DNA of 64,000 nt from Burkholderiales bacterium (GTDB lineage Bacteria; Pseudomonadota; Gammaproteobacteria; Burkholderiales; JACQAP01). The stretch lies in assembly GCA_035549715.1 (NCBI GenBank), contig DASZQJ010000092.1:2735-66734 (forward strand). Direction: 5' to 3'. Positions 6,001-46,355 of the stretch are shown one piece after another. Every line of letters begins with the position of its first letter. Position 1 is the stretch's first letter. The notes under the pieces are model-generated. The model was given only the letters and a program-made list of their open reading frames with translations. It was not told the DNA's origin and made no database searches. Made by a program: the position numbers and the translations under genes.

Positions 6001-6450
6001 GCCAACACTTCGATCCGCACCTTCGAGGACCTTTCCAAGGTCCAGATCGGCGCGGGTGCGAACCTGTACAGCGTCGGCGACATCAACATCTCGGCCCGCG
6101 GGCAGGGCGACGTGGCGGCCACCGTCGAGGCGGAAGCCTACGGCGTGGGCACCTACACCGGCGCCCTGGCGGAAGCCATCATCACCCCGGACAACACCAT
6201 CGAGATCCTGGGGGATGGCTCGAACACCAACAGCACGGCGACCGACACGGTCATCCGCGCCCGCGGGGACGTGAACCTGTCGACCGGCACGGACACCGAC
6301 TTCAACCGCGACGCGTATCGCATCGACGCGCGCAGCGACACCTTCGCCGGCAGTGCGATCCCCATCGACGACGTCAATTCGACCACGTACCTGCTGACGG
6401 ACAACACCATCACGACGGCGGCGGGCTCGCGCATCGAATCCGCCGGCACC
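1..6450 (+). other. Beta-helix-like rung region of the giant protein (Gly/Ala/Val-rich units with the recurring pattern T-x-A-[YF]-IG ... V-x-V-x-A)
   Basis: Visible periodic pattern, e.g. TTAYIDSGVTATVNGDIDVSA, TRAFIGDDAG, TEAFIGNGAIVSG, TQAYIGQGAQINK, TSAFVADGATVNA, TQAFIGNADINQ. It resembles filamentous haemagglutinin/leukotoxin-type adhesin repeats (from memory, not searched). Confidence 0.5.
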
Positions 6451-18400: not shown

Positions 18401-21400
18401 ACATGGACGACAGTGACAGCAAGTCCGGCACGTCCGTGCGCAGCATCGACGGCAACGGCCTCAAGTACTACCTGAACGACCCGGATGGCAACACGTTCAC
18501 GGGCACGTATGTCGAGGTGACGTCGACCACCGCCAGCGGCGCCCAGAAGGGCAACTACGTGGTGTTCCGGAACGTGACTTCGGACACGTTCAAGATCCGC
18601 ATCGACGACATCGACCCGAGGAACCAGGGCAACAAGCCCGGCGTCACGGGCGTGCAGGTGGTGGGCAGGAGCAACCCGATCGACCGCATCGAATCCATCG
18701 ATTCGGCCTCGGGCGGTGACGACATCATCCTCACGGGGGGTGGAGACGACATCGTGTTCGGCGGCGCCGGCAACGACATCATCAAGACGGCCGGCAACGC
18801 GGCCTACGGTGCCATCGACAACGACATCGTGGCGGGCGACGACGCGCGGGCGACGTTCATGAACGGCGAGTTGCGCAGCCTCGTCACGCTGGATGCCGAG
18901 ACCAATGCCAACGGCCCGGCCGGACGCTTCAATGACACGATCTGGACCGGCAACGGCGACGACGTGGTCATCGGCGGCAACGGCTCCGATTTCATCAATA
19001 CCACGGTGACGGCCGACGATTACGACTACGGCAACGTGTCGGTGATCAGCATGAAGTTCAACAGCCAGGTCGACCAGGGCGGCGTCACGGGCACCGCGGG
19101 TGCGGTGGCGGCCGACAACTGGAACAACCTGGCGAGCGCCGGCAAGGGCGCACAGGCCGGTCTGCTCGATGACGACGGCGGTTCGACGGGCGTCAAGGTC
19201 ACCTGGGGCGAGGAGCAGTACAACTACAAGACCAAGTCCTACGAGCTCACGGCGACGACCGACCGCGACACGCACGACCTGATCGACCCGTCTTCGCAGA
19301 ACGAACGCCTGTTCGAAAGCTCCATCGAGCGCGACGACTGCACGCTGGGTGTGGACCTGACGGGCCTGGGCTCGCTGGGAACCTACGACGTCTACGTGTA
19401 CTTCGACAGCGACGAGGCCGACAACCGCAACCAGGGCACCGCCGCGATGAAGATCACCGCGGGCGGCGTCAGCTACTACGTCAACGACCCGAAGGGCAAC
19501 ACCTTCGACGGGGAGTTCGTCGACGCGACGTCGACTGACAGGTACGCGCCGGGCGTGGGCAACTATGTCGTGTTCCGCGGCCTCACGCTCGACCAGCTCA
19601 AGATCCGCATCTCTGGAGACGAGTCGCTCGGGCGCTTTGCGGACGGACGGCCCACCATTTCCGGGATCCAGATCGTGTCCGGGGCCGACCGCGCCGGCGT
19701 CATCGACCAGCCGGCCGGCAAGATCGGTGGCGATTTCGACAACGACGTGGTGCTGGGCGACAACGCCGCCATCAACTGGTTCCATGGCCAGATGTACGAG
19801 GTCACGGCCACGAACCCGGTGGCGACGGTCCCCGATTCCGGCTTCCAGGCCGACACGATCGAAACGGGCGTGGGGGCGGACGTCGTCATCGGCGGCAACG
19901 GCGACGACAAGATCAAGGGTGGCGAGGGCAACGACCTGCTGCTCGGGGACAATGCCCACCTGCTGATGGACAACTCCCTGCTGCTCGGCCTGGGCGACTT
20001 CGACGAGGACAACTGGGACGACGGGCACCACCACCACGACCACTGGCACCACCATGACCACTGGCACCACCATCACTCGCACTTCAACCCCTACGACATC
20101 ATGGGGGTCGAACTGCTCAACGAGGACATCGGCGGCAACGATACGATCGAAGGCGGCCAGGACGACGACCTGATGTACGGCCAGGCCGGCGCCGACACCT
20201 TCGTGTTCGCGGGCTCGGAGCTGGGCGAGGATGCGGTGGTCGAGGCCGGCACGGACTTCCACGGCGATGACCATTGGGACTGGAACTTCGACTTCTGGCA
20301 CTGGGGCTATGACGCCCATGGCCATGACCATCATGACCACGATTACCACGGTCCCAACGACGTGGGTGACACGCTCGACTTCAGCCAGTTCAGCGGCCCG
20401 ATCAGCGTCGACCTGGGTGTTTCGCACGAGCAGACCGTCAGCGCGGGCAACCTCAAGCTGACGCTGTTCCACGGCGATGCCATCGAGAACGTGATCGGCA
20501 GTGAGTTCGCCGACTGGATCGACGGCAACGACCGCGACAACGTCATCCTCGGCCTGGGCGGCAATGACAGGATCAACGGCCAGGACGGCTACGACTTCAT
20601 CGACGGCGGCGACGGCGCCGATGAGATCAATGGCGGCGGTTACGGCAAGGGCCACTACGGGCACCAGTACTGCCACAGCTACTTCTACCTGTACGGCCAC
20701 TATTGGTATCGCGACGGGGATGAATCCGACGTGCTGCTGGGCGGCGCAGGCAATGACAAGATCTGGGGCGCCGGCGGCAACGACACCATCGAGGGTGGCG
20801 ACGGCGACGACCTGATCTATGGCAACGGCGGCGCCGACAGGATGTACGGCGGGGCCGGCAACGACAGGATGTACGGCAACGCCAGCGACGACTGGATGGA
20901 CGGCGGCGACGGCAACGACTGGCTGTATGGCGATGGCGGCAACGACACGCTCTACGGCGGTGCCGGCAACGATGTCATCTACGGCCAGAGCGGCAACGAC
21001 TGGATGGACGGCGGCGACGGCAACGACACGCTTTGGGCGGACGGCGGCAACGACGTCCTGCTCGGCGGTGCCGGCGACGACCTGCTGTACGGCCAGAGCG
21101 GCGACGACCTCATGGACGGCGGCGACGGCAACGACCAGCTGTGGGGCGACACCGGCCGCGACATCCTCAAGGGCGGCAGCGGCAACGACAAGCTCTACGG
21201 CGGCCGCGACGACGACGTGCTCAACGGCGGTGATGGCGACGACTACCTCGACGGCGAAGGCGATGACGACATCCTGCTCGGCGGTGCCGGAAACGACACC
21301 CTGAAGGGCAACGACGGTGACGACGTGATCCTCGGCCAGGACGGCAACGACACGGTCGACGGCGGCTGCGGCCGTGACCTCGTCGACGGCGGCGATGGCG

Positions 21401-22683: not shown

Positions 22684-22695
22684 TGGCCTGGATGT

Positions 22696-22718
22696 CCCGC
22701 CGCCGTCCTGGCGGCGGG
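22696..22718 (+). terminator. GC-rich hairpin 13 nt after the giant-gene stop (CCCGCCGCC-gtcct-GGCGGCGGG)
   Basis: Perfect 9-bp stem with a 5-nt loop. There is no following U-tract, so function as an intrinsic terminator is uncertain. Confidence 0.4.
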
Positions 22719-22730
22719 GCGCCGGAGGGC

Positions 22731-22755
22731 GGCAGGCGGCGCGCAGCCGCCTGCC
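22731..22755 (+). terminator. Second GC-rich hairpin (GGCAGGCGGC-gcgca-GCCGCCTGCC)
   Basis: Perfect 10-bp stem with a 5-nt loop and no U-tract. Confidence 0.4.
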
Positions 22756-22880
22756 CGCGACCGGCGCGTCCCGCGGCACACATGGCCCCAGGCGAACCGC
22801 GCACGCCGTGCCCGGTCAGCCGATTCGTGTTCTAATTGCGCCTGTTTGCACGGGCAAACCGTCTGATTTCAGGAGAGAAA

Positions 22881-23189
22881 ATGGCTGAGTCCAAGAACCA
22901 GGAAGTGAAGGGCGCCGAAGGCACCAAGATCAAGTGGGATGACTCGAACATGAAGAGCGCCTACGCCAACGTCTGCAACGTCACCAGCACGCGCGAGGAA
23001 GTCGTGATGCTGTTCGGCATCAACCAGGCCTGGAACCGCGGCCAGAAGGAAGTCACGATCCAGCTCACGGACCGGATCATCATCAGCCCGTACGCGGCCA
23101 AGCGCCTGGCCATGCTGCTGGACGGCGTGATGAAGGAGTACGAATCCCGCTTCGGCGCATTGCCGGTCGAACCGGTCGCCGCCAAGTAG
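22881..23189 (+). CDS. Small DUF3467-like protein (102 aa)
   Basis: ATG 22881 lies 4 nt after AGGAGAG (22871-22877). The core YANVCNVTSTREEVVMLFGINQAW...IISPYAAKRLAMLL matches my recollection of DUF3467. The track's earlier start at 22836 has no RBS. Confidence 0.75.
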   Translation: MAESKNQEVKGAEGTKIKWDDSNMKSAYANVCNVTSTREEVVMLFGINQAWNRGQKEVTIQLTDRIIISPYAAKRLAMLLDGVMKEYESRFGALPVEPVAAK

Positions 23190-23223: not shown

Positions 23224-24807
23224 TCAGGCGTCCTGCGCCCGCAGGAAGGCCTGGGCGCCGAGGTTCACCAGGACCTTTTCCAGGGCGGAGCCCAGCAGTT
23301 CGCGTACCGCTTTCTCGTCGGTGACCGGCGCGCCGCCGGCATCGGCCTTCAGCAGGAATTCCCTCGAGTTCACCGCCGCCATCATCGAATCCAGGATCTG
23401 GCCCGCATCGCGGCTGCCGTCGAGCAGCTTCAGGGTCTGGCGATGGATTTCGTCGAGGTTGATGGCCTCGCCCCGCAGGTTCGTCGCCTGGTAGCCCTGG
23501 ATGGCCTGCCAGCGCGCCAGGGGGCTGGTCGTGGGCCTGGCCGGGGCCACCCGGGTCAGGGCGAGGGGTGCCACGCGCATTTCCACCACTCCGGCGCCGA
23601 TCGCCGTCAGGATCTCGCTGGCCAGGAACTCGTCCACCGGCTCGTCGGCGGAAACCTTCTCCAGCGCGAGCTCTTCCCGGCACTTGTGCAGCAGCTCCTG
23701 GTAGCTGATCGGCACCGGCCATTCCCGCTGCAGCACCCGCATCGCCAGCTTGGTGACGGGCGCCTTGCAGACGATGCGCGAGCCGCTCGGCGTCTGGTAG
23801 GTCACCCGCACGGCGGGATCCAGCTGCGCGGGCTCCACGGGTGTGGCCGCCGAGGCCAGCCAGAACTGCCGCACCACGCCCGAGTCGATGGCGCGGTTCA
23901 GGCGGATGCCGTTGTGGCAAATGAGGGTCTTGCGGAAATAGCGGCAGCGCACGAAGTCCATGTACTGCTCCATGCGGACGATGTCATGTGCGCCCAGCTC
24001 GTGCAGCGTCTTGGCGGTATCGGCCGAGAAATTGGTCGAGATCATGGACGAGAACTCGGCGTCCCCGAGGTACTGCAGTCCGTTCACTGCCAGGCGCTGG
24101 GCGAACTCGTGGAAGTACATCGGCTGGTTGTGCTCTTCCAGGTATTCGTGGTGCAGGTAGTAGTCCGTCATCTTGTCGAGCTGCTTGAGCTCGGACTGGA
24201 GCAGGCGCTGGTAGGGCGTGTCGGATTTCGAAGTCGCCTGCGCGGCGAAGGCCACCAGGGACTTGGCCTGCTCCAGGCGCGTGTTGGCGTCGGCGAACTG
24301 GGCGCCGCGGTAGAACATCATGTCGCGCACGATGCCGCGGATGTGCCAGCCGGGGTAGACGTTGTAGCTGATGTAGGCCACGCCGTCGGGCGCGAGGTGG
24401 CGCTGCACGATCTCCAGCATCTTGGCCTGCACGCGCGGCGGCACCCACGAGTAGACGCCGTGGCTGATGATGTAATCGAACTGCCCGAGGCTGTCGTCGA
24501 CGTCGAGGATGTCCATGTGGCGCAGCTGGACGTTCTTGATGCCCAGGGCATGGATGGTCTTCCACCCCTCCGCGATCTGGTGCGACGAGAAATCCAGCCC
24601 CACGCACTGTGCGCCGGGGTGGATCTGCGAGATGGCCACCAGGTTGCCGCCCATGGAGCAGCCCAGCTCGAGAATCCGGGCCCCGTCGGCCGGTGGCGAT
24701 TGCAGGCCGAAGATCCTGGCGATCGCGGACAACCTCGCGGGGTGGGTTTCCGGGAAGGAAATGCTGGGGTAGGGAATGGCGTCGTAGGATTTTTGCAGGG
24801 TGTTCAT
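23224..24807 (-). CDS. Class I SAM-dependent methyltransferase with a long C-terminal 'methyltransferase regulatory' type domain (527 aa)
   Basis: The N-terminus YDAIPYPSISFPETHP and motif I ILELGCSMGGN are followed by about 300 aa typical of this two-domain family (from memory). The ORF has a clean start (CAT 24805-24807) and stop. Confidence 0.85.
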   Translation of the reverse strand: MNTLQKSYDAIPYPSISFPETHPARLSAIARIFGLQSPPADGARILELGCSMGGNLVAISQIHPGAQCVGLDFSSHQIAEGWKTIHALGIKNVQLRHMDILDVDDSLGQFDYIISHGVYSWVPPRVQAKMLEIVQRHLAPDGVAYISYNVYPGWHIRGIVRDMMFYRGAQFADANTRLEQAKSLVAFAAQATSKSDTPYQRLLQSELKQLDKMTDYYLHHEYLEEHNQPMYFHEFAQRLAVNGLQYLGDAEFSSMISTNFSADTAKTLHELGAHDIVRMEQYMDFVRCRYFRKTLICHNGIRLNRAIDSGVVRQFWLASAATPVEPAQLDPAVRVTYQTPSGSRIVCKAPVTKLAMRVLQREWPVPISYQELLHKCREELALEKVSADEPVDEFLASEILTAIGAGVVEMRVAPLALTRVAPARPTTSPLARWQAIQGYQATNLRGEAINLDEIHRQTLKLLDGSRDAGQILDSMMAAVNSREFLLKADAGGAPVTDEKAVRELLGSALEKVLVNLGAQAFLRAQDA

Positions 24808-25069: not shown

Positions 25070-26986
25070 TTGCCCATTAGCGACATGAATACGCAACCTG
25101 AGCCCCTGGACCCGCGGCCGCGTTCCCACGTCGCCGAGTTGCGCCGCACCGAACCCACGGTCGCGGACTGGCGCGCCTTTTCCGAAGCCTCCTCGCCGGA
25201 GGCCTATTGCCAGAGCTGGCTCAACCTGCAGTGCCTGATGATCCCGGGCTGCCTGGAAGGCGTGGTCGTGCTGCAGAAGCCCGGCGCCCAGGAATTCGTG
25301 CCCGCCGCATTCTGGCCCGCCGACGATCGCCGCAACCGCAGCCACCTCGCGGAAGTGACCGAGCGCACCCTGAAGGAAGGCCGCGGCGTCTTCAGCTCGC
25401 GCGAAGTGCCGTCCACGCTCGACCCGGAACGCATGCAGACGCGCTACCAGCTTGCCTACCCGGTGAAGCTCGACGGGGCGCTGCGCGGCGTGGTCACCGT
25501 GGAAATCGACCAGCGCCCGGAGAGCCAGGTCGAGGGCGTGATGCGCCAGCTGCAGTGGGGTGCCGGCTGGCTCGAGGTGATGCTGCGCCGGGGGCAATTC
25601 GACCCCGGCGAGATCGCGCGCAAGCGCCTCGCCTTCGTGGTGGAGCTGCTGTCCACCTTCCTCGAGCAGTCCAATTTCGAGGCGGCGGCCGCGGCCTGCG
25701 TGACCGAGCTCGCCGCCTTCCTCGGCTGCGACCGCGTCTCGCTGGGCGTGCTCGAGCGCCGCCGCATCCGCATGGTCGCCCTGTCCCACGCCACGCAGTT
25801 CGACCGCCACTCCAACCTGGCGCGCGCCATCGAGGCGGCGATGGAGGAGGCCGTCGACCAGCGCGAGACCATCCTCTACCCGGACGGCATGAGCGGTCGC
25901 CCCACGGTCGACCAGGCCCATGCGGCGCTGGCGACGGGCTTCGGCTCCGGGGTGGTCCTGACCCTGCCGCTCACCTCGCGCAGCCAGGTGGTGGGCGCGC
26001 TGTGCATGGAGCGGGCGGGCAACTATCGCTTCGAGCGGCCCGCGCTCGAACTGGCCGAAGGCGTGGCGGCCCTGATCGGTCCGCTCGCGGACATGCAGCG
26101 CGGCAACGAGCGCGCGCTGCCGGCGCACCTGGCCACCAGGGCGAGCGGCTTCTGGGAACGCCTCGCGGGGCCGCGCAATGCCGGGCTCAAGGTCGTCCTC
26201 CTGCTGGTCCTGGCGGTCATCGCCTACGTCAGCATCGCCAGCGGCACCTACCGGATCACCGCCGAGACCAACGTCGAGGGTTCGGTGCAGCGTGTGGTGG
26301 CCGCGCCCTTCCAGGGCTTCATCGCCGAGGCGAAGGTGCGGCCGGGCGACACGGTGAAGGCGGGCGACCTGGTCGCGCGCCTCGACGACCGCGACCTGCG
26401 CCTCGAGCGCCTCAAGACGCTCGCGCAGCGCGAGCAGTATTCCAAGCAGTACCGCGAGGCGATGGCCAAGGGCGATCGCGCGCAGATCAAGATCCTCGGC
26501 ACCCTGGTGGAGCAGCAGGACGCGCAGGTGCAGCTGCTCGACGAGCAGCTGTCGCGCACGACCATCGCAGCCCCGTTCGACGGCGTCGTGGTGAGCGGCG
26601 ACCTGAGCCAGCAGCTCGGGGCGCCGGTGGAACGCGGCCAGGTGCTGTTCGAGATCGCGCCCCTCGACAGCTACCGCGTGGTCCTGCAGGTGAACGAGCG
26701 CGACATCGCCGACGTTGCGGTCGGCCAGGCCGGCAAGCTGACGCTGTCCTCGCTGCCGGGGGAGAAGATCGACTTTCGCGTCGCCAAGATCACGCCCGTG
26801 AACACGCCCAAGGAGGGCCGCAACTTTTTCCGCGTCGAGGCGGCCCCGCTGGGAGGGATCGACCGCGTGCGCCCCGGCATGGAAGGGGTGGGCAAGATCG
26901 AGGTCGACGAGCGCCGCCTGATCTGGATCTGGACCCGCGACCTCGTGAACTGGGCCCGCCTGTGGGTCTGGTCGTGGATGCCCTGA
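25070..26986 (+). CDS. GAF-like sensor region fused to a HlyD-type membrane fusion protein (periplasmic adaptor)
   Basis: The track start is TTG 25070 and the first ATG is 25085. The ~370-aa cytoplasmic N-terminal region is GAF-like (...CVTELAAFLGCDRVSLGVLERRRIRMVALSHA...). One TM segment follows (GLKVVLLLVLAVIAYVSIA), then barrel-sandwich halves flanking a short coiled coil (VVAAPFQGFIAEAKVRPGDTVKAGDLVARLDD ... TTIAAPFDGVVVSGD). Confidence 0.8.
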   Translation: MPISDMNTQPEPLDPRPRSHVAELRRTEPTVADWRAFSEASSPEAYCQSWLNLQCLMIPGCLEGVVVLQKPGAQEFVPAAFWPADDRRNRSHLAEVTERTLKEGRGVFSSREVPSTLDPERMQTRYQLAYPVKLDGALRGVVTVEIDQRPESQVEGVMRQLQWGAGWLEVMLRRGQFDPGEIARKRLAFVVELLSTFLEQSNFEAAAAACVTELAAFLGCDRVSLGVLERRRIRMVALSHATQFDRHSNLARAIEAAMEEAVDQRETILYPDGMSGRPTVDQAHAALATGFGSGVVLTLPLTSRSQVVGALCMERAGNYRFERPALELAEGVAALIGPLADMQRGNERALPAHLATRASGFWERLAGPRNAGLKVVLLLVLAVIAYVSIASGTYRITAETNVEGSVQRVVAAPFQGFIAEAKVRPGDTVKAGDLVARLDDRDLRLERLKTLAQREQYSKQYREAMAKGDRAQIKILGTLVEQQDAQVQLLDEQLSRTTIAAPFDGVVVSGDLSQQLGAPVERGQVLFEIAPLDSYRVVLQVNERDIADVAVGQAGKLTLSSLPGEKIDFRVAKITPVNTPKEGRNFFRVEAAPLGGIDRVRPGMEGVGKIEVDERRLIWIWTRDLVNWARLWVWSWMP

Positions 26987-26993
26987 GCGCCCG

Positions 26994-29144
26994 ATGGCGG
27001 CCAACGACATCTTCAGTGCGTCCTGGCACCGCGTCAGCGGCCTGAGGCCGCGCCTGCGCGGCCACGCGCAGATGTCGCGGCACTTCTACCGCGGCCAGCT
27101 CTGGTACGTGCTGCAGGACCATTCCTCGCGACGCGTGCACCGGTTTGCCCCGACGGCCTATACGGTGATCGGCCTCATGGACGGCCACCGCACCGTCGGG
27201 GAGATCTGGGACGCGGCCTGCTCGAAGCTGGGCGACGATGCGCCCACCCAGGAGGAGATCATCCGCCTGCTCGCCCAGCTGCACGGCGCCGACATCCTGC
27301 AGTGCGAGATCCCGCCGGACGTGGACGAGATGCTGCGGCGGCGGGACAAGCTGCGCAGCATGAAGCTGATCGCACTGCTGATGAGTCCGCTGTCGATGAA
27401 GTTCCCGCTGTTCGACCCGGAACGCTTCCTCAATGCGACCGTCGGCCTCGTGCGGCCGCTGTTCACCTGGTACGGGGCGCTGCTCTGGCTGGCGATCGTG
27501 GCCGGCGCGGTGGTGGAGGCGGGTCTGCACTGGCCCGAGCTCACCAAGGACATCACCGACCGCGCGCTCGCCCCGCAGAACCTGCTGCTGATCTGGCTCA
27601 CGTTCCCGGTGCTCAAGGCCTTCCACGAGTTCGGCCACGCCTACGCGGTCAAGCGCTGGGGCGGGGAGGTGCACGAGATGGGCATCATGCTGCTGGTGTT
27701 CATGCCGGTGCCCTACGTGGATGCCTCCGCCGCGTCGGCCTTCCGCGAGAAGTACCCGCGCGTCGTGGTGGGCTCGGCCGGAATGCTGGTGGAGGCGGTG
27801 GTGGCCGCGCTGGCGGTGTTCGTATGGGTGAACGTGGAGCCGGGCCTGGTGCGCTCGGTCGCCTACAACGTGATCCTCATCGCCGGCGTCTCGACCCTGG
27901 TCTTCAACGCCAACCCGCTGCTGCGCTTCGACGGCTATTACATCTTTGGCGACCTCATCGAGATCCCCAACCTGCGGGCCCGCGCCAACCGCTATTTCAT
28001 GTACCTGGTCGAGCGCCACCTGCTCGGCATGGCCGAGAGCCAGGAGCCCGAAGGAACGCCGTCGGAAAAGCGCTGGATGCTGGCCTTCGCCATCAGCTCG
28101 TTCATCTACCGGATGTTCGTCACCTTCGCCATCGTCATGCTGGTGGCCGGCAAGTACTTCATCTTCGGCGTGATCCTCGCCGGCTTCGCCCTGGTGGGCG
28201 CGCTGGTGCTGCCGCTCGTGAAGGGCATCGCCTTCCTGCTCTACAGCCCGCGCCTGCGCCGCATGCGCCTGCGCGCGGCGGTGAGCACCACCCTTTTCGT
28301 GGGTGTACTCGGCGCGCTGGTCTTCCTGGTGCCGGCGCCCATGTGGACCCGGGCCGAAGGGGTGATCTGGGTCCCCGAGCAGGCGATCGTGCGCCCGGGC
28401 ACCGAGGGCTTCGTCGCCGAGGTGGTGGCGCGCCCGAACTCGCAGGTCAGGCCGGGCGATCCCATCCTGAAGCTCGACGAGCCGCTGCTGTCGGCGCACA
28501 TCCGGGTGCTGCGGGCGAAGGTCGAGCAGTACGAGGCGCAGTACCGTTCCGAGCGCTACGACGAGCACGGGCAGGTGCGCGCGGAACTGACCCTGGAGAC
28601 GCTGCGCTCCACGCAGGCCGAGCTCGCGCGCGCGCTCGAAAAGGCCGCGGCGCTGGAAGTCCGGGCGCCCGTGGAAGGCCGCCTGGTGCTGGCGCGCGCC
28701 GACGACCTGCCGGCGCGCTTCGTGCGCCAGGGCCAGGACGTGGCCTACATCGTCGACGGCAAGCAGATGACCGCGCGCGTGGTGGTCCCGCAGCAGGACA
28801 TCGACCTGGTGCGCAGCCGCACCCGCGCGATCGAAGTGCGCCTCACGGAGGACGTCGGCGTGGTGCTGCCGGCCAGGGTCCGGCGCGAAGTCCCGGCGGC
28901 GACGGCCGAGCTGCCCAACCTCGCGCTCGCGATGGACGGCGGCGGCAAGGTGGCGCTGGATCCGCGCGAGAAGACCCCGCGGGCGCTGCAGAAGTTCTTC
29001 GACTTCGAGCTGAGCCTGCCGGTGCGCGAGAACGTGCACATCGGCAGCCGCATCTACGTCCGCTTCGACCATGGCTCCGAGCCGCTGGCCTTCCAGTGGT
29101 ACCGCAGCCTGCGCCAGGTCTTCCTCAAGCAGCTGAATGTCTGA
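26994..29144 (+). CDS. Site-2-protease (peptidase M50) domain fused to a HlyD-type membrane fusion domain (716 aa)
   Basis: HEFGH at 27624-27638 and the second S2P motif NPLLRFDG at 27912-27935 sit within a polytopic hydrophobic region. The C-terminal half reads ...IVRPGTEGFVAEVVARPNSQVRPGDPILKLDE..coiled coil..EVRAPVEGRLVL. The start is 7 nt after the upstream stop. Confidence 0.85.
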   Translation: MAANDIFSASWHRVSGLRPRLRGHAQMSRHFYRGQLWYVLQDHSSRRVHRFAPTAYTVIGLMDGHRTVGEIWDAACSKLGDDAPTQEEIIRLLAQLHGADILQCEIPPDVDEMLRRRDKLRSMKLIALLMSPLSMKFPLFDPERFLNATVGLVRPLFTWYGALLWLAIVAGAVVEAGLHWPELTKDITDRALAPQNLLLIWLTFPVLKAFHEFGHAYAVKRWGGEVHEMGIMLLVFMPVPYVDASAASAFREKYPRVVVGSAGMLVEAVVAALAVFVWVNVEPGLVRSVAYNVILIAGVSTLVFNANPLLRFDGYYIFGDLIEIPNLRARANRYFMYLVERHLLGMAESQEPEGTPSEKRWMLAFAISSFIYRMFVTFAIVMLVAGKYFIFGVILAGFALVGALVLPLVKGIAFLLYSPRLRRMRLRAAVSTTLFVGVLGALVFLVPAPMWTRAEGVIWVPEQAIVRPGTEGFVAEVVARPNSQVRPGDPILKLDEPLLSAHIRVLRAKVEQYEAQYRSERYDEHGQVRAELTLETLRSTQAELARALEKAAALEVRAPVEGRLVLARADDLPARFVRQGQDVAYIVDGKQMTARVVVPQQDIDLVRSRTRAIEVRLTEDVGVVLPARVRREVPAATAELPNLALAMDGGGKVALDPREKTPRALQKFFDFELSLPVRENVHIGSRIYVRFDHGSEPLAFQWYRSLRQVFLKQLNV

Positions 29145-31071
29145 CCGCGGACTGGCCGCGTCGGCCGACGCCTACCCCGAGCGCGAGGAGCGGCGCCCGT
29201 CCATGGTCGAAAAGGTGCTGCTCTCGCTCGCCTACCTGCCCCAGTCGCTGCTGGCGCGGGCGCCGTCCCCGTCGACCGTCGCGGGCGTCCAGGCCCGGGC
29301 GAAACTGCCGGCCGACTTCGCCGCGCGGGTGCGCGACCTGCGCTACGAGTTGCGCCGCACCGGGCTCGGCAGCGCCGGCCTGGAGCAGGCGGTCGCGCTG
29401 GCCGCGGCGCAGGTGCACGCGCAACTCGGCATCAAGCCCGGCCCGGGGCCGATTTGCGCCGCGCTGGCGCTGGCCCGGGGCGGCCGCTGTGTCGAGGCCA
29501 CCGACGTGGGTGACTGGCCGCTGGCCGTGGCGCTGGCCGCCGTGGCGGTGGCGCTGGCCGGCATCCCGGTGCACGTCATCACGGTGACCGCACATCTGGC
29601 GCGGCGCGACGCCGAGGCGATGCGCCCCCTGTACGCCGCGTTCGGCCTGTCGGTGGGCGTGGTCGAGGAAACCACGCAGGAGGCGGACCGGCGCCAGGCC
29701 TACGGCGCCGACGTCGCCTACTGCGTGCATCGCGAGGTGGCGCTCGATTACCTGCGCGATCGCCTGGTGCTCAAGGGCCGCCCGCGCGCGCTGCGACTGC
29801 GCACCGAGGCGCTCACGTCCCCGAACCCGCGCGCCCAGCACCTGATGCTGCGCGGCCTGCAGTGCGCCATCGTTTGCGAGGGGGAAACCATCCTGGTCGA
29901 CGCCGCCCAGACCCCGATCACGATTTCCGGGCATGCCAGCGCATCGCAGGAGGCCGCCTGGCTCGTCCAGGGCCTGCAGATGGCGCGGGCGCTCGTGCCC
30001 GGCGCCGAATACGAGATCCCCGAAATCGGTCTGGCGCGGCTGACCGACGCGGGCCGCGCCAGGCTGGCGCAGATGGCCCGCCAGCTGCCCGGGGTCTGGC
30101 AGGGGGCGCGCCGGCGGGAGGAGATCGTGCAACTCGCGCTGGTGGCCGAGCGCATGCTGGAAAAGGACCGGCACTACGAAGTGGCGGGCGAAAGCCTGAC
30201 GGTGGCCGAGGAGGTCCTGCGCCAGCACGCCGGCGACGCGGGCAACGCCAGGCTGCTGCGGCTGCTGCTCGAGAGCAAGGAGAACTGCGCCCTGAGCGGG
30301 GCGCGGGAGACGCTGGCGCGCATCGGCTACCAGCGCTTCTTCCGCCGCTACCTGCGGCTGTCGGCGCTGAGCCTGGGGGCGCGGCAGGTGAGCCGCGAGC
30401 TGTGGGGGATCTACCGGCTGCGGCGCGTCGTCGCGGCCCCGGGCGAGCCGGCGCTGGGCGTACGGCTGCCGGATCGCTTCTATGCCGACAAGGCGAGCGG
30501 CGCAGAAGCGGTGCTGGCACGGGTTCGCGAGTTGCGCGCCCACGGGCACCCGGTGCTGGTCGTCACGCGCACGCCACAGGCCGCGGCGGCCTGGTCACAG
30601 CTGCTGGAAACCGGCGGCGTGCCCAACCAGCGCCTGGCGGGCAGCCAGGACGCGAAGGAGGAGGAAGCCTTCGGGCAGGTCTGCGCGCCGGGAAGGGTCA
30701 CGGTCGCACCGTATTTCGCCGCGCGCGGCAAGCGCGCGGAGGTCATGGCGGCCTCCGCGGACAAGGGCGGCTTGCGGATCATCCAGGTGCAGCCGCTCGC
30801 CTATGGCCGCCAGCTGCAGTATCTGGTGGAGCGGGGCATCCCGCGCGGGTCCAGCGGCAGCGTGCAGCGCATGGTGGTGATGGACGACGACCTGGTGGGC
30901 ATCTACGTGCCGGGGTGGTGGGTGCGCTGGCGCGGGATGCCGCTGCGCCGGGCGATGCTGCGCTACTGCCAGTGGGCTGCCGCGCGCGACCACGCCCAGG
31001 CGCGCAGCGAATTGCTGCGGGTGGAGGATTACCTCGGGGACGTGTTCGCCTTCTCGGGCCGGCAGGGCTGA
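29137..31071 (+). CDS. SecA-like protein (NBD1-PPXD-NBD2 only, 644 aa) with degenerate ATPase motifs
   Basis: Colinear with E. coli SecA as I remember it: [31 protein letters not shown] vs [46 protein letters not shown] vs [30 protein letters not shown]...[20 protein letters not shown] vs GGLHIIGTERHESRR...GSSRFYLSMEDALMRIF. The Walker A equivalent is ATDVGDWP (29494-29523 region) instead of MRTGEGKT. The DEVD equivalent is CEGE (29875-29886). ATG 29137 overlaps the upstream stop (29142-29144). Confidence 0.8.
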   Translation: [644 protein letters not shown]

Positions 31072-31075
31072 GCGG

Positions 31076-31885
31076 TCAGAGCAGGCGGACCCGGCACTTC
31101 ACCCCCGCCGGGATGCGGTTGCCGGGATTGGGAAGCTGCAGGCGCACGCCGAACGTGCCGCTCGCCGCGTCGATGACGCGATCCACCACCTTCACCGAAG
31201 CCTCGTGCCGGCCCCCGATGGGCTGCTCCGGCGTGACCTGGGCGCGCATGCCGACCTTGATCCTGCCGTAGAGCGTCACGGGCAGGATCACTTCCACGTT
31301 GAGCGGGTCGATTTCCGCCAGCTTGGCGATGGGCTGCTTCACGTCGTTGGTGGTGGCGAACTCGCCGGGCTTCTGCTGCACGTCGACCACCACGCCGGTG
31401 AGGGGGCTGCGGATCGTGCGCAGCGCCAGCACTTCCTCGCTGCGCTTGACCTCCAGCTCCGCCAGCTTCTGGTTCTCGCGCGCCTGGCGCAGCTGCTCGC
31501 TCGCGAACTGGTACTCCGCCACGGCCTCGTCCTTGGCATTCACGGACACGAAGTTCTGCTTGTACAGCTCCTCGGCGCGGACCATCTTCTTCTGCGCGAG
31601 GTCCAGGCGCGCCTCGGCGGCCTTGATCTCGCCCTGCATGTTGGCGCGCGATTTGGCCAGGTCGAGCGCCGCGCGCTCCGGGCCGGATTCGAGCGTGGCG
31701 ATGACCTGGCCGCGCTTGATGGTCTCCCCGCGCTGGATGAGCACCGACTCGATCACGGCTTCCACCGGGCTGCGGATCTCGATCTGCTGGCGGGCCTCGA
31801 TCAGGCAGTCGTACTCGTCGGCGGCGGAGGCTGCGCCGGCTGCCGCCAGCGCCAGGGCGCAGAGCGGACGGAAGGAGGGAGTCAT
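31076..31885 (-). CDS. Short periplasmic adaptor (RND/HlyD-type MFP, 269 aa) with a signal peptide
   Basis: The likely start is ATG at 31885 (MTPSFRPLCALALAAAGAASA signal); the track start at 32017 is less likely. It has a lipoyl-like half (IRSPVEAVIESVLIQRGETIKRGQVIATLE), a coiled coil, a second half (IRSPLTGVVVDVQQKPGE) and a beta-barrel. It is convergent with the SecA-like gene, with 4 nt between the stop codons. Confidence 0.8.
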   Translation of the reverse strand: MTPSFRPLCALALAAAGAASAADEYDCLIEARQQIEIRSPVEAVIESVLIQRGETIKRGQVIATLESGPERAALDLAKSRANMQGEIKAAEARLDLAQKKMVRAEELYKQNFVSVNAKDEAVAEYQFASEQLRQARENQKLAELEVKRSEEVLALRTIRSPLTGVVVDVQQKPGEFATTNDVKQPIAKLAEIDPLNVEVILPVTLYGRIKVGMRAQVTPEQPIGGRHEASVKVVDRVIDAASGTFGVRLQLPNPGNRIPAGVKCRVRLL

Positions 31886-32316
31886 CGGCGAAGGCCCAGG
31901 CGGGAAATCCTTGAACAGCGCGGGATTGTATCCAATTGCGGGGTCCCGGGGGGGATGGCCGCCAGGGCCGTCCGGCAGCCTCGCCGCTGCCCATAAGGCC
32001 TTGTTAATTGGAGGCAAGTTTGGGGGTCAGCAGCGCACGGGGCGGGCCCGGGCGGTGGGTGGCGCGGCGCACTATAAGACCAAACCTGACAAGCGGCTTT
32101 ACTTTTGTCTGCGAAAATGTAATAAAAACAATGTAGAGTACGTCGTTCTTAATGGGGAATGCGCAAACCGCCGCCGGGGGTGGCGGGGCGCAGGGCGAGA
32201 AAAACCGAACCATGACAACAATGGGGCCGCACCGCCAGGCGCACCGCTGGCGGGCCGATGATGCTTCGCGCCGCGATTTCGCGCGGCACCGCGCCAGCCA
32301 GGGGCGGGACTGACCC

Positions 32317-34053
32317 ATGCGCACCGGACCGTTCGAACGCTCCCCGCGCGACCGCCGCCGCGGCGACAGCATGCAGGAAAGCGAGGCCCGCTTCCGCGCG
32401 CTGGTGCAGAATTCCTTCGACATCATCACCATCCACGACGAGAGCGGCCTCACCCATTACGAATCGCCGGCTGCCTCGCGCATCCTCGGCTACCCGCCGG
32501 GGTCGCTGATCGGCAAGACGCCGTTCGAGACCGTGCATCCCAAGGACGTGGCCCGCGCGCGCGACGCCTTCGGCGCCGTGCTCAAGGGCGAAGTCTCGCC
32601 GCTGCCGACGGTGCTGCGCTTTCGCCATGCCGACGGCTCCTGGATCCACCTCGAGGTGCTGGGCAACAACCTGCTCGACCATCCCGGCATCCGCGGCATC
32701 GTGCTCACCTCGCGCGACGTCAGCGAGCGCAAGCGCGCCGAGCAGCGTGCCCAGTACCTCGCCAACTACGACGTGCTCACCGGCCTGCCGAACCGCTTCC
32801 TCGTGCAGGACCGCCTGACCCAGGCCGTGGCCCAGGCCCACCGCAACAAGCTGCGCGTGGGCCTGATGCACATCGACCTCGATCGCTTCAAGCTGGTCAA
32901 CGAGACCCTCGGGCACTACGTGGGCGATGCGCTGCTCAAGCAGGCGGCCGACCGCATCCGCAAGCTGGTGCGCGAAGGCGACACCGTGGCGCGGGTGGGG
33001 GGCGACGAGTTCACCATCGTCTATCCGAACGTGAGCAACCTGCCGGCGCTGTCGATCACCGCCGAACGCCTGCTCGAGGACCTGGCGCGGCCCTTCCCGA
33101 GCGAGGGGCAGGACCTGTTCGTCTCGGCCTCCCTGGGCATCAGCCTGTATCCCGACGACGCGGGCAGCGTCGACGAGCTCATCAAGCACGCCGACGCGGC
33201 GATGTACAGCGCCAAGCACCTGGGCCGCAACAACTACCAGTTCTTCACGACGGACCTCAATCGCGAAGTGCAGGAGCGCATGATGATCGAGGCGGGCCTG
33301 CGCACCGCCATCCACCGCAACGAGCTGTCGCTGGTGTTCCAGCCCAAGATCGACCTCGCCACCCGGCGGGTGTTCGGCGCCGAGGCCCTGCTGCGCTGGA
33401 ACCATCCCAAGCTGGGCCTGATCTCGCCGGCGCGCTTCGTGCCCGTGGCGGAGGAGGCGGGCCTGGTCGGGGCGATCGGGGAATGGGTGCTGCGCACGGC
33501 CTGCAGGCAGATCCGCCAGTGGCAGGACGCGGGCTTCCCCATGCAGGTCGCGGTCAACGTTTCCGCGCGCCAGTTCCAGCAGTACGACGTCGCGGACCTG
33601 GTGCTGGGCATCATGCGCGAGTCCGGCGTGCGCGCCGAGCACCTCGAGGTGGAGCTCACCGAGAGCGCGGTCATGAACGACGCCGAGAGCTCCATCGTGA
33701 CGCTGGAGCGCCTGGCCGATTCCGGCGTGCAGATCGCCATCGACGATTTCGGCACCGGCTACTCGAGCCTGTCGTACCTGAAGCGCCTGCCGCTCGACGT
33801 GCTCAAGATCGACCAGTCGTTCGTGCGCGACATCTCTTCCGACCCGAACGATGCGGCAATCGTGCGCGCCATCATCACGCTCGCGCGCAGCCTGGGCATC
33901 AAGGTGATCGCGGAAGGGGTGGAGAACGAGGCCCAGCTCGCCTTCCTCAACGCCTACGGGTGCCAGTACGCGCAGGGCTACCTGTTCGGCAAGCCGCTCA
34001 CCTCGGCGGAGTTCGAGCAGCTGCTCGGCGCGACCTCCGCCGCCGGCGCCTGA
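32317..34053 (+). CDS. PAS-GGDEF-EAL signalling protein (c-di-GMP turnover)
   Basis: PAS (SEARFRALVQNSFDIITIHD), GGDEF (RVGGDEFTIV) and EAL (GAEALLRW ... DDFGTGYSSLSYL ... KIDQSFV). The start is ATG 32317 or ATG 32371. Confidence 0.9.
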   Translation: MRTGPFERSPRDRRRGDSMQESEARFRALVQNSFDIITIHDESGLTHYESPAASRILGYPPGSLIGKTPFETVHPKDVARARDAFGAVLKGEVSPLPTVLRFRHADGSWIHLEVLGNNLLDHPGIRGIVLTSRDVSERKRAEQRAQYLANYDVLTGLPNRFLVQDRLTQAVAQAHRNKLRVGLMHIDLDRFKLVNETLGHYVGDALLKQAADRIRKLVREGDTVARVGGDEFTIVYPNVSNLPALSITAERLLEDLARPFPSEGQDLFVSASLGISLYPDDAGSVDELIKHADAAMYSAKHLGRNNYQFFTTDLNREVQERMMIEAGLRTAIHRNELSLVFQPKIDLATRRVFGAEALLRWNHPKLGLISPARFVPVAEEAGLVGAIGEWVLRTACRQIRQWQDAGFPMQVAVNVSARQFQQYDVADLVLGIMRESGVRAEHLEVELTESAVMNDAESSIVTLERLADSGVQIAIDDFGTGYSSLSYLKRLPLDVLKIDQSFVRDISSDPNDAAIVRAIITLARSLGIKVIAEGVENEAQLAFLNAYGCQYAQGYLFGKPLTSAEFEQLLGATSAAGA

Positions 34054-34096
34054 GGCCCGGCGCGCACCCGGCTCGCGGCCGCGTGGCGGGGACGTA

Positions 34097-34672
34097 ATGG
34101 CCATCAGGATCGTCAGCTTCGCGGGCAGCCTGCGCTCCGCGTCCTTCAACCGGAAGCTCGTCCGCATCGCCGCCGCCGGTGCCCGCGCCGCCGGGGCGCA
34201 GGTCACGGAGGTCGACCTGCGCGACCTGCCCATGCCGCTGTACGACGGCGACATCGAGCGCGAGCACGGCCTGCCCCCCAATGCCAAGGTGTTCAAGCGC
34301 CTGCTGGTCGAGCACCACGGCATGCTGATCGCCTCCCCCGAGTACAACAGCGCTTTTTCCGCCGTGCTCAAGAACGCCATCGACTGGGCCTCGCGACTGG
34401 AGCCGGGCGAGACGCCGCTGCGGGCGTTCAAGGGCAAGGTGGCGGGGCTGATGGCCGCCTCCCCCGGCAACCTCGGCGGGGTGAGGGGACTCGCCGCACT
34501 GCGCCTGGTGCTGGGAAACATCGGCACCATCGTGGTTCCCACCCAGCTCGCCATCCCGCGGGCCGCCGAGGCCTTCGAGGAGGACGGCAGCCTGAAGGAC
34601 GAGCGCCAGCAGGCCGCCATCGAGGCCATCGCCGCCGAAGTCGTGCGCTTCGCGCAACGCCTGTCGGACTGA
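34097..34672 (+). CDS. NAD(P)H-dependent FMN reductase family protein
   Basis: MAIRIVSFAGSLRSASFNRKL...LIASPEYNSAFSAVLKNAIDWASR is a typical signature of this family. Confidence 0.85.
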   Translation: MAIRIVSFAGSLRSASFNRKLVRIAAAGARAAGAQVTEVDLRDLPMPLYDGDIEREHGLPPNAKVFKRLLVEHHGMLIASPEYNSAFSAVLKNAIDWASRLEPGETPLRAFKGKVAGLMAASPGNLGGVRGLAALRLVLGNIGTIVVPTQLAIPRAAEAFEEDGSLKDERQQAAIEAIAAEVVRFAQRLSD

Positions 34673-43870: not shown

Positions 43871-43887
43871 GGGTCCGGCTGCAATCC

Positions 43888-46350: not shown

Positions 46351-46355
46351 GGCCC

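What the first reader, a model, noticed from the sequence alone, without database searches (positions are those of the whole stretch)
25070..31885. Pump-less envelope module: GAF-MFP, S2P(M50)-MFP fusion, degenerate SecA paralogue and an orphan MFP
Three plus-strand genes are tightly coupled (a 7-nt gap, then an 8-nt ATG/TGA overlap). A convergent fourth gene ends 4 nt from the third. Together they encode three different HlyD-type membrane-fusion paralogues. The window contains no ABC, RND or MFS inner-membrane pump and no TolC-like outer-membrane factor.

Instead, the adaptor modules are fused to a cytoplasmic GAF-like sensor region (gene 1) and to a polytopic site-2-protease domain with both signature motifs intact (gene 2: HEFGH 27624-27638, NPLLRFDG 27912-27935). 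They are translationally coupled to a SecA-like NBD1-PPXD-NBD2 protein whose ATPase motifs are degenerate (gene 3).

I know of no characterised machine with this composition. It reads like an intramembrane-protease-gated processing, export or signalling assembly that borrows a SecA-like substrate-binding scaffold. It is my top candidate for an undescribed system in this window.
Basis: partly seen in the sequence, partly recalled or inferred. Interest (0 to 1): 0.85.

Follow-up and report, generated by a model that had tools for sequence, protein, structure and literature searches.

The report
ABC-less secretion-like module beside giant adhesin
The four genes are real and belong to a widespread envelope gene module, described only by computer analysis in 2015 and never tested, that most likely exports the giant surface protein encoded next to it; in this bacterium's lineage its SecA-like motor has lost every ATP-hydrolysis motif.

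Summary
The 64-kb window has no ABC, RND, MFS or TolC gene.

The module is not undescribed. Kamneva, Poudel and Ward (PLoS One 2015, PMC4452313) reported the same four-gene locus from sequence analysis alone. I found no experimental follow-up.

In 80 related genome loci the order g1-g2-g3 is nearly invariant (69/69 and 68/70 evaluable). An ABC-like ATPase appears in 2 of 80. A TolC-like gene follows in 15 of 40.

Features that paper does not discuss:
- The M50 fusion starts with a PqqD-like peptide-recognition domain and resembles RiPP intramembrane proteases.
- A ~105-aa DUF3467 protein (window 22881-23189) accompanies the module in 47 of 64 loci.
- A giant RTX, cadherin or PKD protein usually lies directly upstream (window 61-22683, 7,540 aa).
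- The SecA-like ATPase is intact in most lineages. It is dead in a betaproteobacterial clade of about 30 protein clusters that includes this window.

Best reading: a type-I-like, ABC-less secretion and processing machine for the neighbouring giant protein. Mechanism is inferred, not shown.

The parts
61..22683 (+). Giant RTX protein (7,540 aa), the candidate cargo. It has 42 GGxGxD motifs (aa 4107-7182) and a C-terminal metzincin-like domain (HEIGHVLGFDH at nt 22195-22227). No obvious N-terminal signal peptide.
   Evidence: Pfam HemolysinCabind 328 bits in 19 stretches; Peptidase_M10 25.7 bits. Sequence. Homologous giants lie directly upstream of the module in about 24 of 47 evaluable loci, and a same-strand ORF of at least 700 aa in about 30 of 47.
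22881..23189 (+). DUF3467 small protein (102 aa), a conserved accessory of the module and of giant genes. Possible chaperone or adaptor.
   Evidence: Pfam DUF3467 82 bits. An aggagag RBS precedes the ATG. Present in 47 of 64 evaluable loci, sometimes in two copies. Flanked by giant genes in L085 and L087.
23224..24807 (-). PKMT-type (protein-lysine) methyltransferase-like gene. A lineage-specific companion.
   Evidence: Pfam MethyTransf_Reg 88 bits, PKMT_2nd 75 bits, Methyltransf_25. Syntenic in L001, L004 and L081.
25070..26986 (+). g1: cytoplasmic GAF region (nt 25676-26080), one TM helix (26180-26236) and a periplasmic MFP domain (26258-26923). The likely start is the ATG at 25085.
   Evidence: Pfam GAF, HlyD_3 and HlyD_D23. 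Hydropathy. Found immediately upstream of g2 in 69 of 69 evaluable loci.
26994..29144 (+). g2: PqqD-like RRE domain (27105-27299), S2P/M50-like polytopic core with HEFGH and NPLLRFDG (27441-28331), and a periplasmic MFP domain with an alpha-hairpin (28341-29141).
   Evidence: Pfam and NCBIfam. Motif conservation at least 95% in 78 sequences. AF2 model pLDDT 83.6. Foldseek top hits are MexA, AcrA, MacA and EmrA for the C-terminal part. The best PDB sequence hit is T1SS HlyD in 8DCK, E 1.8e-5.
29137..31071 (+). g3: short SecA-like protein (NBD1-PPXD-NBD2, no scaffold, wing or two-helix finger) with all ATPase motifs degenerate. Degenerate motifs: VGDWP 29506-29520, CEGE 29875-29886, SLG 30370-30378, AARGKRA 30718-30738, ERGIPRGSSG 30829-30858.
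   Evidence: Pfam SecA_DEAD 166 bits. Aligned with B. subtilis SecA residues 77-546, E 1.6e-40. Motif census. Found directly after g2 in 68 of 70 loci.
31076..31885 (-). g4: periplasmic RND-type MFP with an N-terminal signal peptide. Convergent here and co-directional in most other lineages.
   Evidence: NCBIfam RND_mfp 121 bits, above the 94.9 cutoff. Present within 3.5 kb of g3 in 47 of 55 loci, 34 on the same strand and 13 convergent.
32317..34053 (+). PAS-GGDEF-EAL protein. A lineage-specific neighbour and possible c-di-GMP input. Membership of the system is uncertain.
   Evidence: Pfam EAL 277 bits, GGDEF 166 bits, PAS. Syntenic next to g4 in L081 and L082 and, by antisense tblastn, in L032, L055 and L060.

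Best explanation
The locus is the betaproteobacterial form of a widespread conserved envelope module. The module most likely works as a type-I-like secretion and processing machine that lacks an ABC transporter. Its probable cargo is the giant, signal-peptide-less surface protein encoded beside it, here the 7,540-aa RTX/metzincin protein at 61-22683.

Shown here: gene content, order and tight coupling; conservation across phyla; domain identities; intact protease motifs; the dead ATPase in this lineage.

Inferred working model:
- The cargo is made in the cytoplasm and handled by the DUF3467 protein and by the clamp (PPXD) of the SecA-like protein.
- The PqqD-like domain of g2 docks a recognition segment of the cargo or of DUF3467.
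- The S2P-like membrane core of g2 is the inner-membrane gate and probably clips the cargo, since its catalytic motifs are conserved.
- The MFP domains of g1 and g2 (membrane-anchored) and g4 (periplasmic) form the periplasmic duct to a TolC-type channel. That channel is encoded in cis in many lineages and must be elsewhere in this genome.
- The GAF region of g1 gates the system in response to a cytoplasmic ligand.
- In most lineages the SecA-like protein supplies ATP energy. In this lineage it is a pseudo-ATPase kept as a scaffold or receptor. Energy must then come from elsewhere, for example a trans ATPase, proton-motive force, or Ca2+-driven folding of RTX repeats outside the cell. The last option is my own speculation from general knowledge of RTX secretion.
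For: - Conserved order g1-g2-g3(-g4): 69/69, 68/70 and 47/55 evaluable loci, from Burkholderiales, Nitrospira, Desulfobacterota, Gammaproteobacteria, Planctomycetota, Omnitrophota, Rokubacteria and others.
- The g2 family has more than 7,000 protein clusters.
- The upstream neighbour on the same strand is an ORF of at least 700 aa in about 30 of 47 loci. It is RTX-type and homologous to the window giant in about 24, and PKD, Ig or cadherin-type in others.
- An OEP/TolC gene follows g4 in 15 of 40 loci.
- ABC-like ATPase ORFs occur in only 2 of 80 loci, and none is HlyB-sized.
- The MFP fold of the g2 C-terminal part, with an alpha-hairpin, matches MexA, AcrA and MacA. Its TM and lipoyl part matches T1SS HlyD.
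- ATPase motifs are canonical in 90 of the 120 best g3 homologues and absent in the 30 closest. The degenerate proteins keep their length (638-644 aa) and family-specific motifs: YPER, DYLRDR, EVKEG, PRFFRRYL, LLAFSG.
- g2 catalytic motifs are at least 95% conserved.
- Kamneva et al. 2015 independently proposed a secretion-related role, with SecA_DEAD as the ATPase and M50 as the pore.
Against: - There are no experimental data anywhere. Cargo assignment rests on synteny only.
- About a third of loci have no giant gene directly upstream.
- No OMF is in this window.
- An S2P-like core is not known to form a protein-conducting channel.
- The ATPase-dead state here leaves the energy source unexplained, or may mean the machine no longer translocates anything.
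- The closest curated relatives of the g2 N-terminal 400 residues are RiPP leader peptidases. That points to small-peptide substrates.
- The giant protein could use a canonical T1SS encoded elsewhere in the genome.
Confidence: 0.5

Rival explanations
1. RiPP-like peptide maturation and export system. The PqqD-like RRE of g2 binds the leader of a small precursor, perhaps DUF3467 itself or an unrecognised peptide. The M50-like core removes the leader, and the MFPs with an OMF export the product. The giant genes are bystanders.
For: - The best curated match for g2 residues 39-408 is the daptide biosynthesis intramembrane metalloprotease (E 3.6e-43). YydH/LiaK epipeptide protease also matches.
- PqqD domain.
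- DUF3467 occurs in tandem copies in L004, L060, L065 and L072, as precursor genes often do.
Against: - The score (148 bits) is far below the equivalog cutoff of 300.
- No RiPP tailoring enzyme family is among the neighbour clusters found in at least 6 loci.
- The window's intergenic regions match nothing in the related loci apart from one weak 38-nt hit, so no conserved small ORF shows up there.
- DUF3467 is highly conserved over its whole folded core, with 16 invariant residues across phyla. That is unlike a precursor core.
- A SecA-like protein with a preprotein clamp has no role in known RiPP pathways.
Confidence: 0.13
2. Post-secretion control of the giant adhesin, analogous to LapD/LapG. 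The giant protein leaves by a canonical T1SS elsewhere. This module senses a cytoplasmic nucleotide through GAF, with the local PAS-GGDEF-EAL as input, and uses the intramembrane protease to cut, release or anchor the adhesin at the envelope.
For: - A GAF sensor is fused to an envelope-spanning protein.
- PAS-GGDEF-EAL is syntenic in this lineage.
- Protease motifs are conserved.
- The ATPase is dispensable in this clade.
- Giant adhesin genes are adjacent.
Against: - The GGDEF-EAL neighbour is restricted to some Burkholderiales loci.
- In most lineages the SecA-like ATPase is intact and translationally coupled. That argues for cytoplasmic polypeptide handling.
- The cis-encoded OMF and three MFPs look like a duct rather than a sensor.
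Confidence: 0.15
3. Regulated intramembrane proteolysis for signalling. The S2P-like domain cleaves a membrane-tethered regulator, and the rest is accessory.
For: S2P-type motifs HExxH and NPxxxxDG. This is the classical role of M50 proteases, from general knowledge.
Against: No anti-sigma, sigma or transcription-factor gene is among the conserved neighbours. Fusion to MFP and PqqD domains and coupling to a SecA-like protein are unexplained by this reading.
Confidence: 0.05
4. Decayed remnant of a tripartite efflux pump or T1SS that has lost its inner-membrane transporter, with no current function.
For: No pump gene in the window. The SecA-like ATPase motifs are destroyed here.
Against: - All four ORFs are intact and tightly coupled.
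- The same pump-less architecture is conserved in hundreds of species genomes, and the g2 family alone has more than 7,000 protein clusters.
- Protease motifs are conserved.
- The dead-ATPase proteins keep full length over 48-99% identity.
Confidence: 0.02

Closest known systems
Conserved 'secondary SecA_DEAD / T1SS-related' locus of Kamneva, Poudel and Ward, PLoS One 2015 (PMC4452313)
   Same: The same four proteins in the same order: GAF-HlyD, Peptidase_M50-HlyD, SecA_DEAD lacking the wing and scaffold domains, and a HlyD/biotin-lipoyl protein. An OEP gene is sometimes present and no ABC transporter. The window proteins align collinearly with the published Ca. Nitrospira defluvii locus.
   Different: That paper is computational only. 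It does not mention the PqqD domain, RTX or giant neighbours, or ATPase-motif status. A 'conserved hypothetical' at the DUF3467 position appears only in its S2 Table. The window belongs to a clade in which the SecA-like protein is a pseudo-ATPase, and it carries lineage-specific PKMT-like and PAS-GGDEF-EAL neighbours.
Canonical type I secretion systems (HlyBD-TolC, LapBCE)
   Same: Membrane-anchored MFPs with a cytoplasmic N-terminus. A TolC-type OMF, in cis in many relatives. An adjacent RTX or giant adhesin without a Sec signal. The g2 TM and lipoyl region matches HlyD of PDB 8DCK.
   Different: No ABC transporter. Instead there is a soluble SecA-derived NBD1-PPXD-NBD2 protein and an S2P-like membrane domain fused to an MFP. 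There are three different MFPs rather than one.
RRE-HExxH intramembrane proteases of RiPP pathways (daptide protease; YydH/LiaK of epipeptides)
   Same: An N-terminal PqqD-like recognition domain followed by an M50-like polytopic HExxH core. Significant sequence similarity (E 3.6e-43).
   Different: The score is below the equivalog cutoff. g2 adds a C-terminal TM helix and MFP domain. No precursor or tailoring genes are conserved nearby.
Accessory SecA2 systems of Gram-positive bacteria and mycobacteria
   Same: A SecA paralogue dedicated to a special cargo set, often large surface glycoproteins or adhesins. Kamneva et al. place the clade next to actinobacterial SecA2.
   Different: SecA2 keeps the scaffold and two-helix finger and works with SecYEG or SecY2. 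g3 lacks these domains, sits in a Gram-negative MFP/OMF context, and is catalytically dead here.
Peptidase-containing ABC transporters (PCATs) and two-adaptor pumps such as TriABC-OpmH
   Same: Functional analogy only. PCATs combine a cargo-clipping protease with an exporter. TriABC uses two different MFPs in one duct. Both points come from general knowledge.
   Different: There is no homology of the energy or channel component. The protease class differs: zinc S2P-like here, cysteine C39 in PCATs.

Membership tests
Kamneva-Ward secondary SecA_DEAD / T1SS-related locus | SecA_DEAD protein lacking the wing and scaffold domains | tested here: met
   SecA_DEAD 166 bits and P-loop_SecA. NCBIfam SecA profiles match only positions ~106-553 of ~790. 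The protein is 644 aa.
Kamneva-Ward secondary SecA_DEAD / T1SS-related locus | Adjacent Peptidase_M50-HlyD fusion, GAF-HlyD protein and a separate HlyD/biotin-lipoyl protein | tested here: met
   Pfam and NCBIfam domain hits for g1, g2 and g4. Gene order is conserved.
Kamneva-Ward secondary SecA_DEAD / T1SS-related locus | Sequence homology and collinearity with a published member | tested here: met
   Window g1-g4 align in order with Ca. Nitrospira defluvii FP929003.1 (L121): g2 45% identity, E 1.7e-166; g3 34%; two g4-like MFPs, as in NIDE2719 and NIDE2721. Locus tags themselves could not be read.
Canonical type I secretion system | HlyB-type ABC transporter | tested here: not met
   None in the window. 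ABC-like ATPase ORFs occur in 2 of 80 related loci, and both are small.
Canonical type I secretion system | Membrane fusion protein with TM anchor and periplasmic lipoyl, hairpin and barrel domains | tested here: met
   g1 and g2: HlyD_3 and HlyD_D23, single or terminal TM helix. The AF2 model of g2 matches MexA, AcrA and MacA. HlyD of 8DCK, E 1.8e-5.
Canonical type I secretion system | TolC-family outer-membrane factor | tested here: not met
   Not in the 64-kb window. An OEP gene (198 bits) follows g4 in 15 of 40 related loci. Whether this genome encodes one elsewhere cannot be tested.
Canonical type I secretion system | Cargo with C-terminal RTX repeats and no N-terminal Sec signal | tested here: inconclusive
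   The neighbouring giant has 19 HemolysinCabind stretches and no obvious signal peptide. That it is the cargo of this module is inferred from synteny only.
SecA preprotein translocase ATPase | Walker A and B and helicase motifs III, V and VI | tested here: not met
   All five are degenerate in the window and in its 30 closest relatives. They are canonical in the next 90 homologues.
SecA preprotein translocase ATPase | Helical scaffold with two-helix finger, wing domain and C-terminal tail | tested here: not met
   Alignment to SecA structures ends at about residue 546-590 of SecA. Only about 55 residues follow NBD2.
Site-2 protease (Peptidase M50) | HExxH and NxxPxxxxDG motifs in membrane helices | tested here: met
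   HEFGH (aa 211-215) and NPLLRFDG (aa 307-314) lie in predicted helices and are at least 95% conserved in 78 sequences.
Site-2 protease (Peptidase M50) | Pfam PF02163 above the gathering score | tested here: not met
   17.3 bits against a cutoff of 27.2 for the window protein. PF02163 is on record for at least 20 of the 120 best homologues.
Site-2 protease (Peptidase M50) | S2P fold of the membrane core | tested here: inconclusive
   The AF2 model is confident (pLDDT 83.6). The 50 Foldseek matches listed were all MFPs matching the C-terminal part, and the core could not be searched alone.
RiPP RRE-HExxH intramembrane protease (daptide / YydH-LiaK type) | Equivalog-level match and a precursor plus tailoring-gene context | tested here: not met
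   148 bits against a cutoff of 300, and 29 against 225. No conserved tailoring enzymes and no conserved match to the window's intergenic regions.
RND-type periplasmic adaptor (g4) | TIGR01730 above its cutoff | tested here: met
   121.3 bits against 94.9.

The most novel reading that the evidence does not exclude
A distinct, experimentally untouched class of Gram-negative protein secretion system. A SecA-derived cytoplasmic motor, an S2P-like membrane protease fused to an adaptor, two further adaptors, a DUF3467 accessory protein and a TolC-type channel together export giant adhesin-like proteins without any ABC transporter. In one betaproteobacterial clade, which includes this window, the motor has become a pseudo-ATPase while the machine persists. 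That implies a second, ATP-independent way of driving or using the duct.
Probability: 0.4. Interest if true: 0.85.

Novelty: new variant of a known kind. Interest (0 to 1): 0.62.

Why it matters
The module is common. Its M50-MFP protein has more than 7,000 clusters at 90% identity, and relatives occur in at least ~385 of 185,579 species genomes, in nitrifiers, sulfate reducers, methylotrophs, Accumulibacter and Bordetella/Achromobacter relatives. Yet it appears in none of the reviews or experimental papers I could search.

If it is a secretion route for giant adhesins, it would be an alternative to the ABC-driven type I pathway. It would also be the first use of a SecA-type motor outside the Sec translocon in Gram-negative bacteria.

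The points added here each turn the 2015 gene-neighbourhood observation into a direct experiment: candidate cargo, the DUF3467 partner, the peptide-recognition domain, conserved protease chemistry, and a natural ATPase-dead clade.

Tried and rejected
1. The 914-aa ORF 32149-34893 (-) next to g4 had no Pfam or NCBIfam hit and an antisense-like composition. The real genes are PAS-GGDEF-EAL and FMN reductase on the + strand.
2. DUF3467 fold. AF2 with the only permitted, shallow alignment gave pLDDT 53, which is unusable. A profile search of PDB sequences found nothing significant.
3. The search for related loci with g3 alone found no relatives. With the alignment of degenerate g3 proteins it had no usable conserved stretch.
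4. Foldseek of full-length g2 listed only MFP structures among its 50 shown matches, so the S2P and RRE parts could not be fold-tested. The PDB profile search gave only MFP hits.
5. blastn and tblastx of the three intergenic regions of the window against all loci gave only one weak 38-nt blastn match, so there is no sign of a hidden conserved precursor peptide.
6. The promoter and terminator scan was at or below chance.
7. Eight literature searches covered SecA/HlyD/M50/GAF, SecA_DEAD, the paper's title phrase, DUF3467, locus tags of published carriers and SecA-like/T1SS terms. They gave only the 2015 paper, one self-citation, and a 2026 preprint that mentions a horizontally acquired secA in Chlorobium chlorochromatii without describing the module.

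Full report
**1. What is in the sequence.**

The window is about 70% G+C. Its closest relatives are Burkholderiales metagenome-assembled genomes.
- g1, 25070-26986 (+). The likely start is the ATG at 25085.
- g2, 26994-29144 (+), after a 7-nt gap.
- g3, 29137-31071 (+), with an 8-nt overlap.
- g4, 31076-31885 (-), 4 nt from the g3 stop. It has a signal-peptide-like N-terminus.

Profile searches confirm the domain calls:
- g1 has a GAF domain (47.9 bits), one TM helix and a HlyD-type adaptor.
Residues 39-408 match NCBIfam 'daptide biosynthesis intramembrane metalloprotease' at E 3.6e-43. The score is below that model's equivalog cutoff.
- g3 is SecA_DEAD plus P-loop_SecA.
- g4 is an RND-type adaptor above its cutoff.

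HEFGH and NPLLRFDG sit at the stated coordinates and are at least 95% conserved in 78 family members, as is a GGEVHEMGIMLL block.

An AlphaFold2 model of g2 is confident (pLDDT 83.6). It shows an N-terminal alpha/beta domain, a helical membrane core and a C-terminal adaptor with an alpha-hairpin. The adaptor part matches MexA, AcrA, MacA and EmrA by Foldseek. The TM and lipoyl part matches the T1SS adaptor HlyD in PDB 8DCK by sequence profile.

**2. The SecA-like protein.**

g3 aligns with B. subtilis SecA residues 77-546, which cover NBD1, PPXD and NBD2 (E 1.6e-40). Only about 55 residues follow, so the scaffold with its two-helix finger, the wing domain and the C-terminal tail are absent.

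Every ATPase motif is destroyed: GEGKT to VGDWP, DEVD to CEGE, TGT to SLG, TNMAGRGTDI to PYFAARGKRA, GRSGRQGDPG to ERGIPRGSSG.

This is a lineage feature and not a family feature.
- Among 65 copies from related loci, 56 are fully canonical.
- Among the 120 best database homologues, the 30 closest (48-99% identity, all betaproteobacterial metagenome proteins of 638-644 aa) are all degenerate. The remaining 90 are all canonical.
- Decay is graded. Basal members still have DEAD in Walker B but have lost the Walker A lysine.
- The dead proteins keep their length, overall conservation (0.62-0.73 against 0.72-0.80 per-column majority frequency) and family-specific N- and C-terminal motifs YPER and LLAFSG. 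They are therefore maintained by selection as something other than an ATPase.
- On a tree of g2, the dead-ATPase loci form two betaproteobacterial groups beside an intact Burkholderiales group.

**3. Conservation and context.**

The g2 family has more than 7,000 clusters at 90% identity. It was found in 370-385 species genomes by exact-peptide scans, which is a lower bound.

In 80 loci, counting only those with enough flanking sequence to judge:

| Feature | Loci |
|---|---|
| g1 immediately before g2 | 69 of 69 |
| g3 immediately after g2 | 68 of 70 |
| g4-type adaptor within 3.5 kb | 47 of 55 (34 co-directional, 13 convergent as here) |
| OEP/TolC gene after g4 | 15 of 40 |

The OEP identification is from Pfam (198 bits). 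Only 2 of 80 loci contain any ABC-ATPase-like ORF, and both are small. Six other large neighbouring ORFs that I scanned were peptidase, PKD, Ig, cadherin or Hsp70-like proteins, and none was an RND pump. The window's remaining genes are unrelated: PAS-GGDEF-EAL, FMN reductase, alpha-2-macroglobulin with PBP1C, P-type ATPases, cbb3 oxidase with FixGHI, Usp proteins and a beta-CASP RNase. The 'pump-less' observation therefore holds here and generally.

**4. Two further conserved partners.**

Clustering all ORFs of the loci revealed a ~105-aa protein just upstream of g1 in 47 of 64 evaluable loci, sometimes in two copies. It is DUF3467 (82 bits). The window copy is at 22881-23189, preceded by an RBS. 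It has 16 invariant residues across phyla.

Directly upstream on the same strand there is an ORF of at least 700 aa in about 30 of 47 loci, often running off the 10-kb flank.
- About 24 of these are homologous to the window's 7,540-aa RTX protein (61-22683).
- Thirteen share its C-terminal metzincin-like domain (HEIGHVLGFDH).
- Others are PKD, Ig, PPC or cadherin giants.

DUF3467 also sits between or next to giant genes when these are displaced (L085, L087). A giant of at least 10,095 aa follows g3 in L084.

In a relative with only 48% g3 identity (L081), the whole arrangement of the window is kept: RTX giant, DUF3467, PKMT-like methyltransferase (-), g1, g2, g3, g4 (-), PAS-GGDEF-EAL, FMN reductase.

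**5. Prior knowledge.**

[quoted passage not shown] These sit in a conserved neighbourhood with an M50-HlyD protein, a GAF-HlyD protein and a HlyD/biotin-lipoyl protein, sometimes an OEP protein, and no ABC transporter. The authors proposed that SecA_DEAD supplies ATPase activity and that the M50 protein may form the pore. They stated that the biological role is completely unknown.

Their S2 Table lists carriers that include M. extorquens AM1, R. pomeroyi, B. avium, A. xylosoxidans, N. multiformis and Ca. N. defluvii. It also lists, without discussion, a 'conserved hypothetical' at the DUF3467 position and SapC-family proteins. The paper does not mention PqqD, RTX, Walker motifs or DUF3467.

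The window proteins align collinearly with the Ca. N. defluvii chromosome locus, so membership is direct.

I found no experimental follow-up in 8 million open papers and preprints. A 2021 comprehensive review of tripartite and type 1 systems does not mention the module in the part of its text that is held. Subscription-only literature was not searchable.

**6. Interpretation.**

The most economical reading is a type-I-like secretion and processing machine for the adjacent giant, Sec-signal-less surface protein. It has adaptors and an OMF as in T1SS, but a SecA-derived motor and an S2P-like membrane domain in place of the ABC transporter. A PqqD-like domain and DUF3467 would act as cargo-recognition or chaperone elements, and the GAF domain as a cytoplasmic gate.

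All mechanistic steps are inferred from domain identity and synteny. None is shown.

In the window's clade the motor is dead. Either energy comes from elsewhere or the machine has shifted to a scaffold, receptor or processing role. This is the least understood point.

The rivals are each less consistent with the conserved gene set. They are weighed in the rival-explanation section:
- RiPP-like peptide maturation and export.
- LapD/LapG-like control of adhesin retention.
- Signalling by intramembrane proteolysis.
- A decayed pump.

**7. Verdict.**

The system is not undescribed, but it is uncharacterised.

The window adds a natural ATPase-dead variant. The comparison adds candidate cargo, DUF3467 and the recognition domain.

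I rate it a new variant of a known, computationally described kind, with moderate to high interest.

Noticed in passing
window 61-22683 (+): Giant 7,540-aa RTX protein with 42 GGxGxD motifs. It has an unusual C-terminal metzincin-type zinc motif (HEIGHVLGFDH, nt 22195-22227) after the RTX block, and a short conserved C-terminal motif (G-F/Y-D-x-M/L-G-x-A/S-L) shared with betaproteobacterial homologues. Long antisense shadow ORFs inside it (4603-15159, 15361-22779) are high-GC artefacts.
   Followed up: partly
window 23224-24807 (-): Methyltransferase with MethyTransf_Reg and PKMT C-terminal winged-helix domains, the architecture of rickettsial protein-lysine methyltransferases that modify a surface protein (from general knowledge). 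It lies between the DUF3467 gene and g1 and is syntenic in L001, L004 and L081. It could methylate the giant protein.
   Followed up: partly
window 32149-34893 (-) versus 32317-34053 (+) and 34097-34672 (+): The 914-aa minus-strand ORF is spurious. The real genes are a PAS-GGDEF-EAL protein and an FMN reductase on the plus strand. Both are syntenic beside g4 in L081 and L082, which suggests a c-di-GMP link to the module in this lineage.
   Followed up: partly
window 35461-43584 (+): Classic bacterial alpha-2-macroglobulin (1,946 aa) and PBP1C pair, preceded by a small Adhesin_E-like gene (34779-35258).
   Followed up: no
window 43810-61968: Three P-type ATPases, one of them FixI-like with HMA. 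Also the cbb3 oxidase genes ccoNOP (50152-53286), FixG and FixH, universal stress proteins and a beta-CASP RNase. This is a microaerobic respiration island unrelated to the finding.
   Followed up: no
L084 4797-14100; L085 1-9913 and 10954-20327: Genes for proteins of more than 10,000 aa (10,095 and 10,228 aa called) lie next to the module or to DUF3467 in related metagenome contigs.
   Followed up: no
L038, L041, L050, L062, L071, L121 (Nitrospira loci): Nitrospira versions carry two tandem g4-type adaptors followed by an OEP gene. This matches NIDE2719 and NIDE2721 of the 2015 paper.
   Followed up: partly
bioRxiv 10.64898/2026.03.19.712371: In Chlorobium chlorochromatii, the Chlorobi species known for giant symbiosis proteins, a horizontally acquired secA (Cag_1676) is mentioned. 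The 2015 paper lists one Chlorobi species with the secondary SecA_DEAD locus. A link between that locus and the giant symbiosis proteins was not examined.
   Followed up: no
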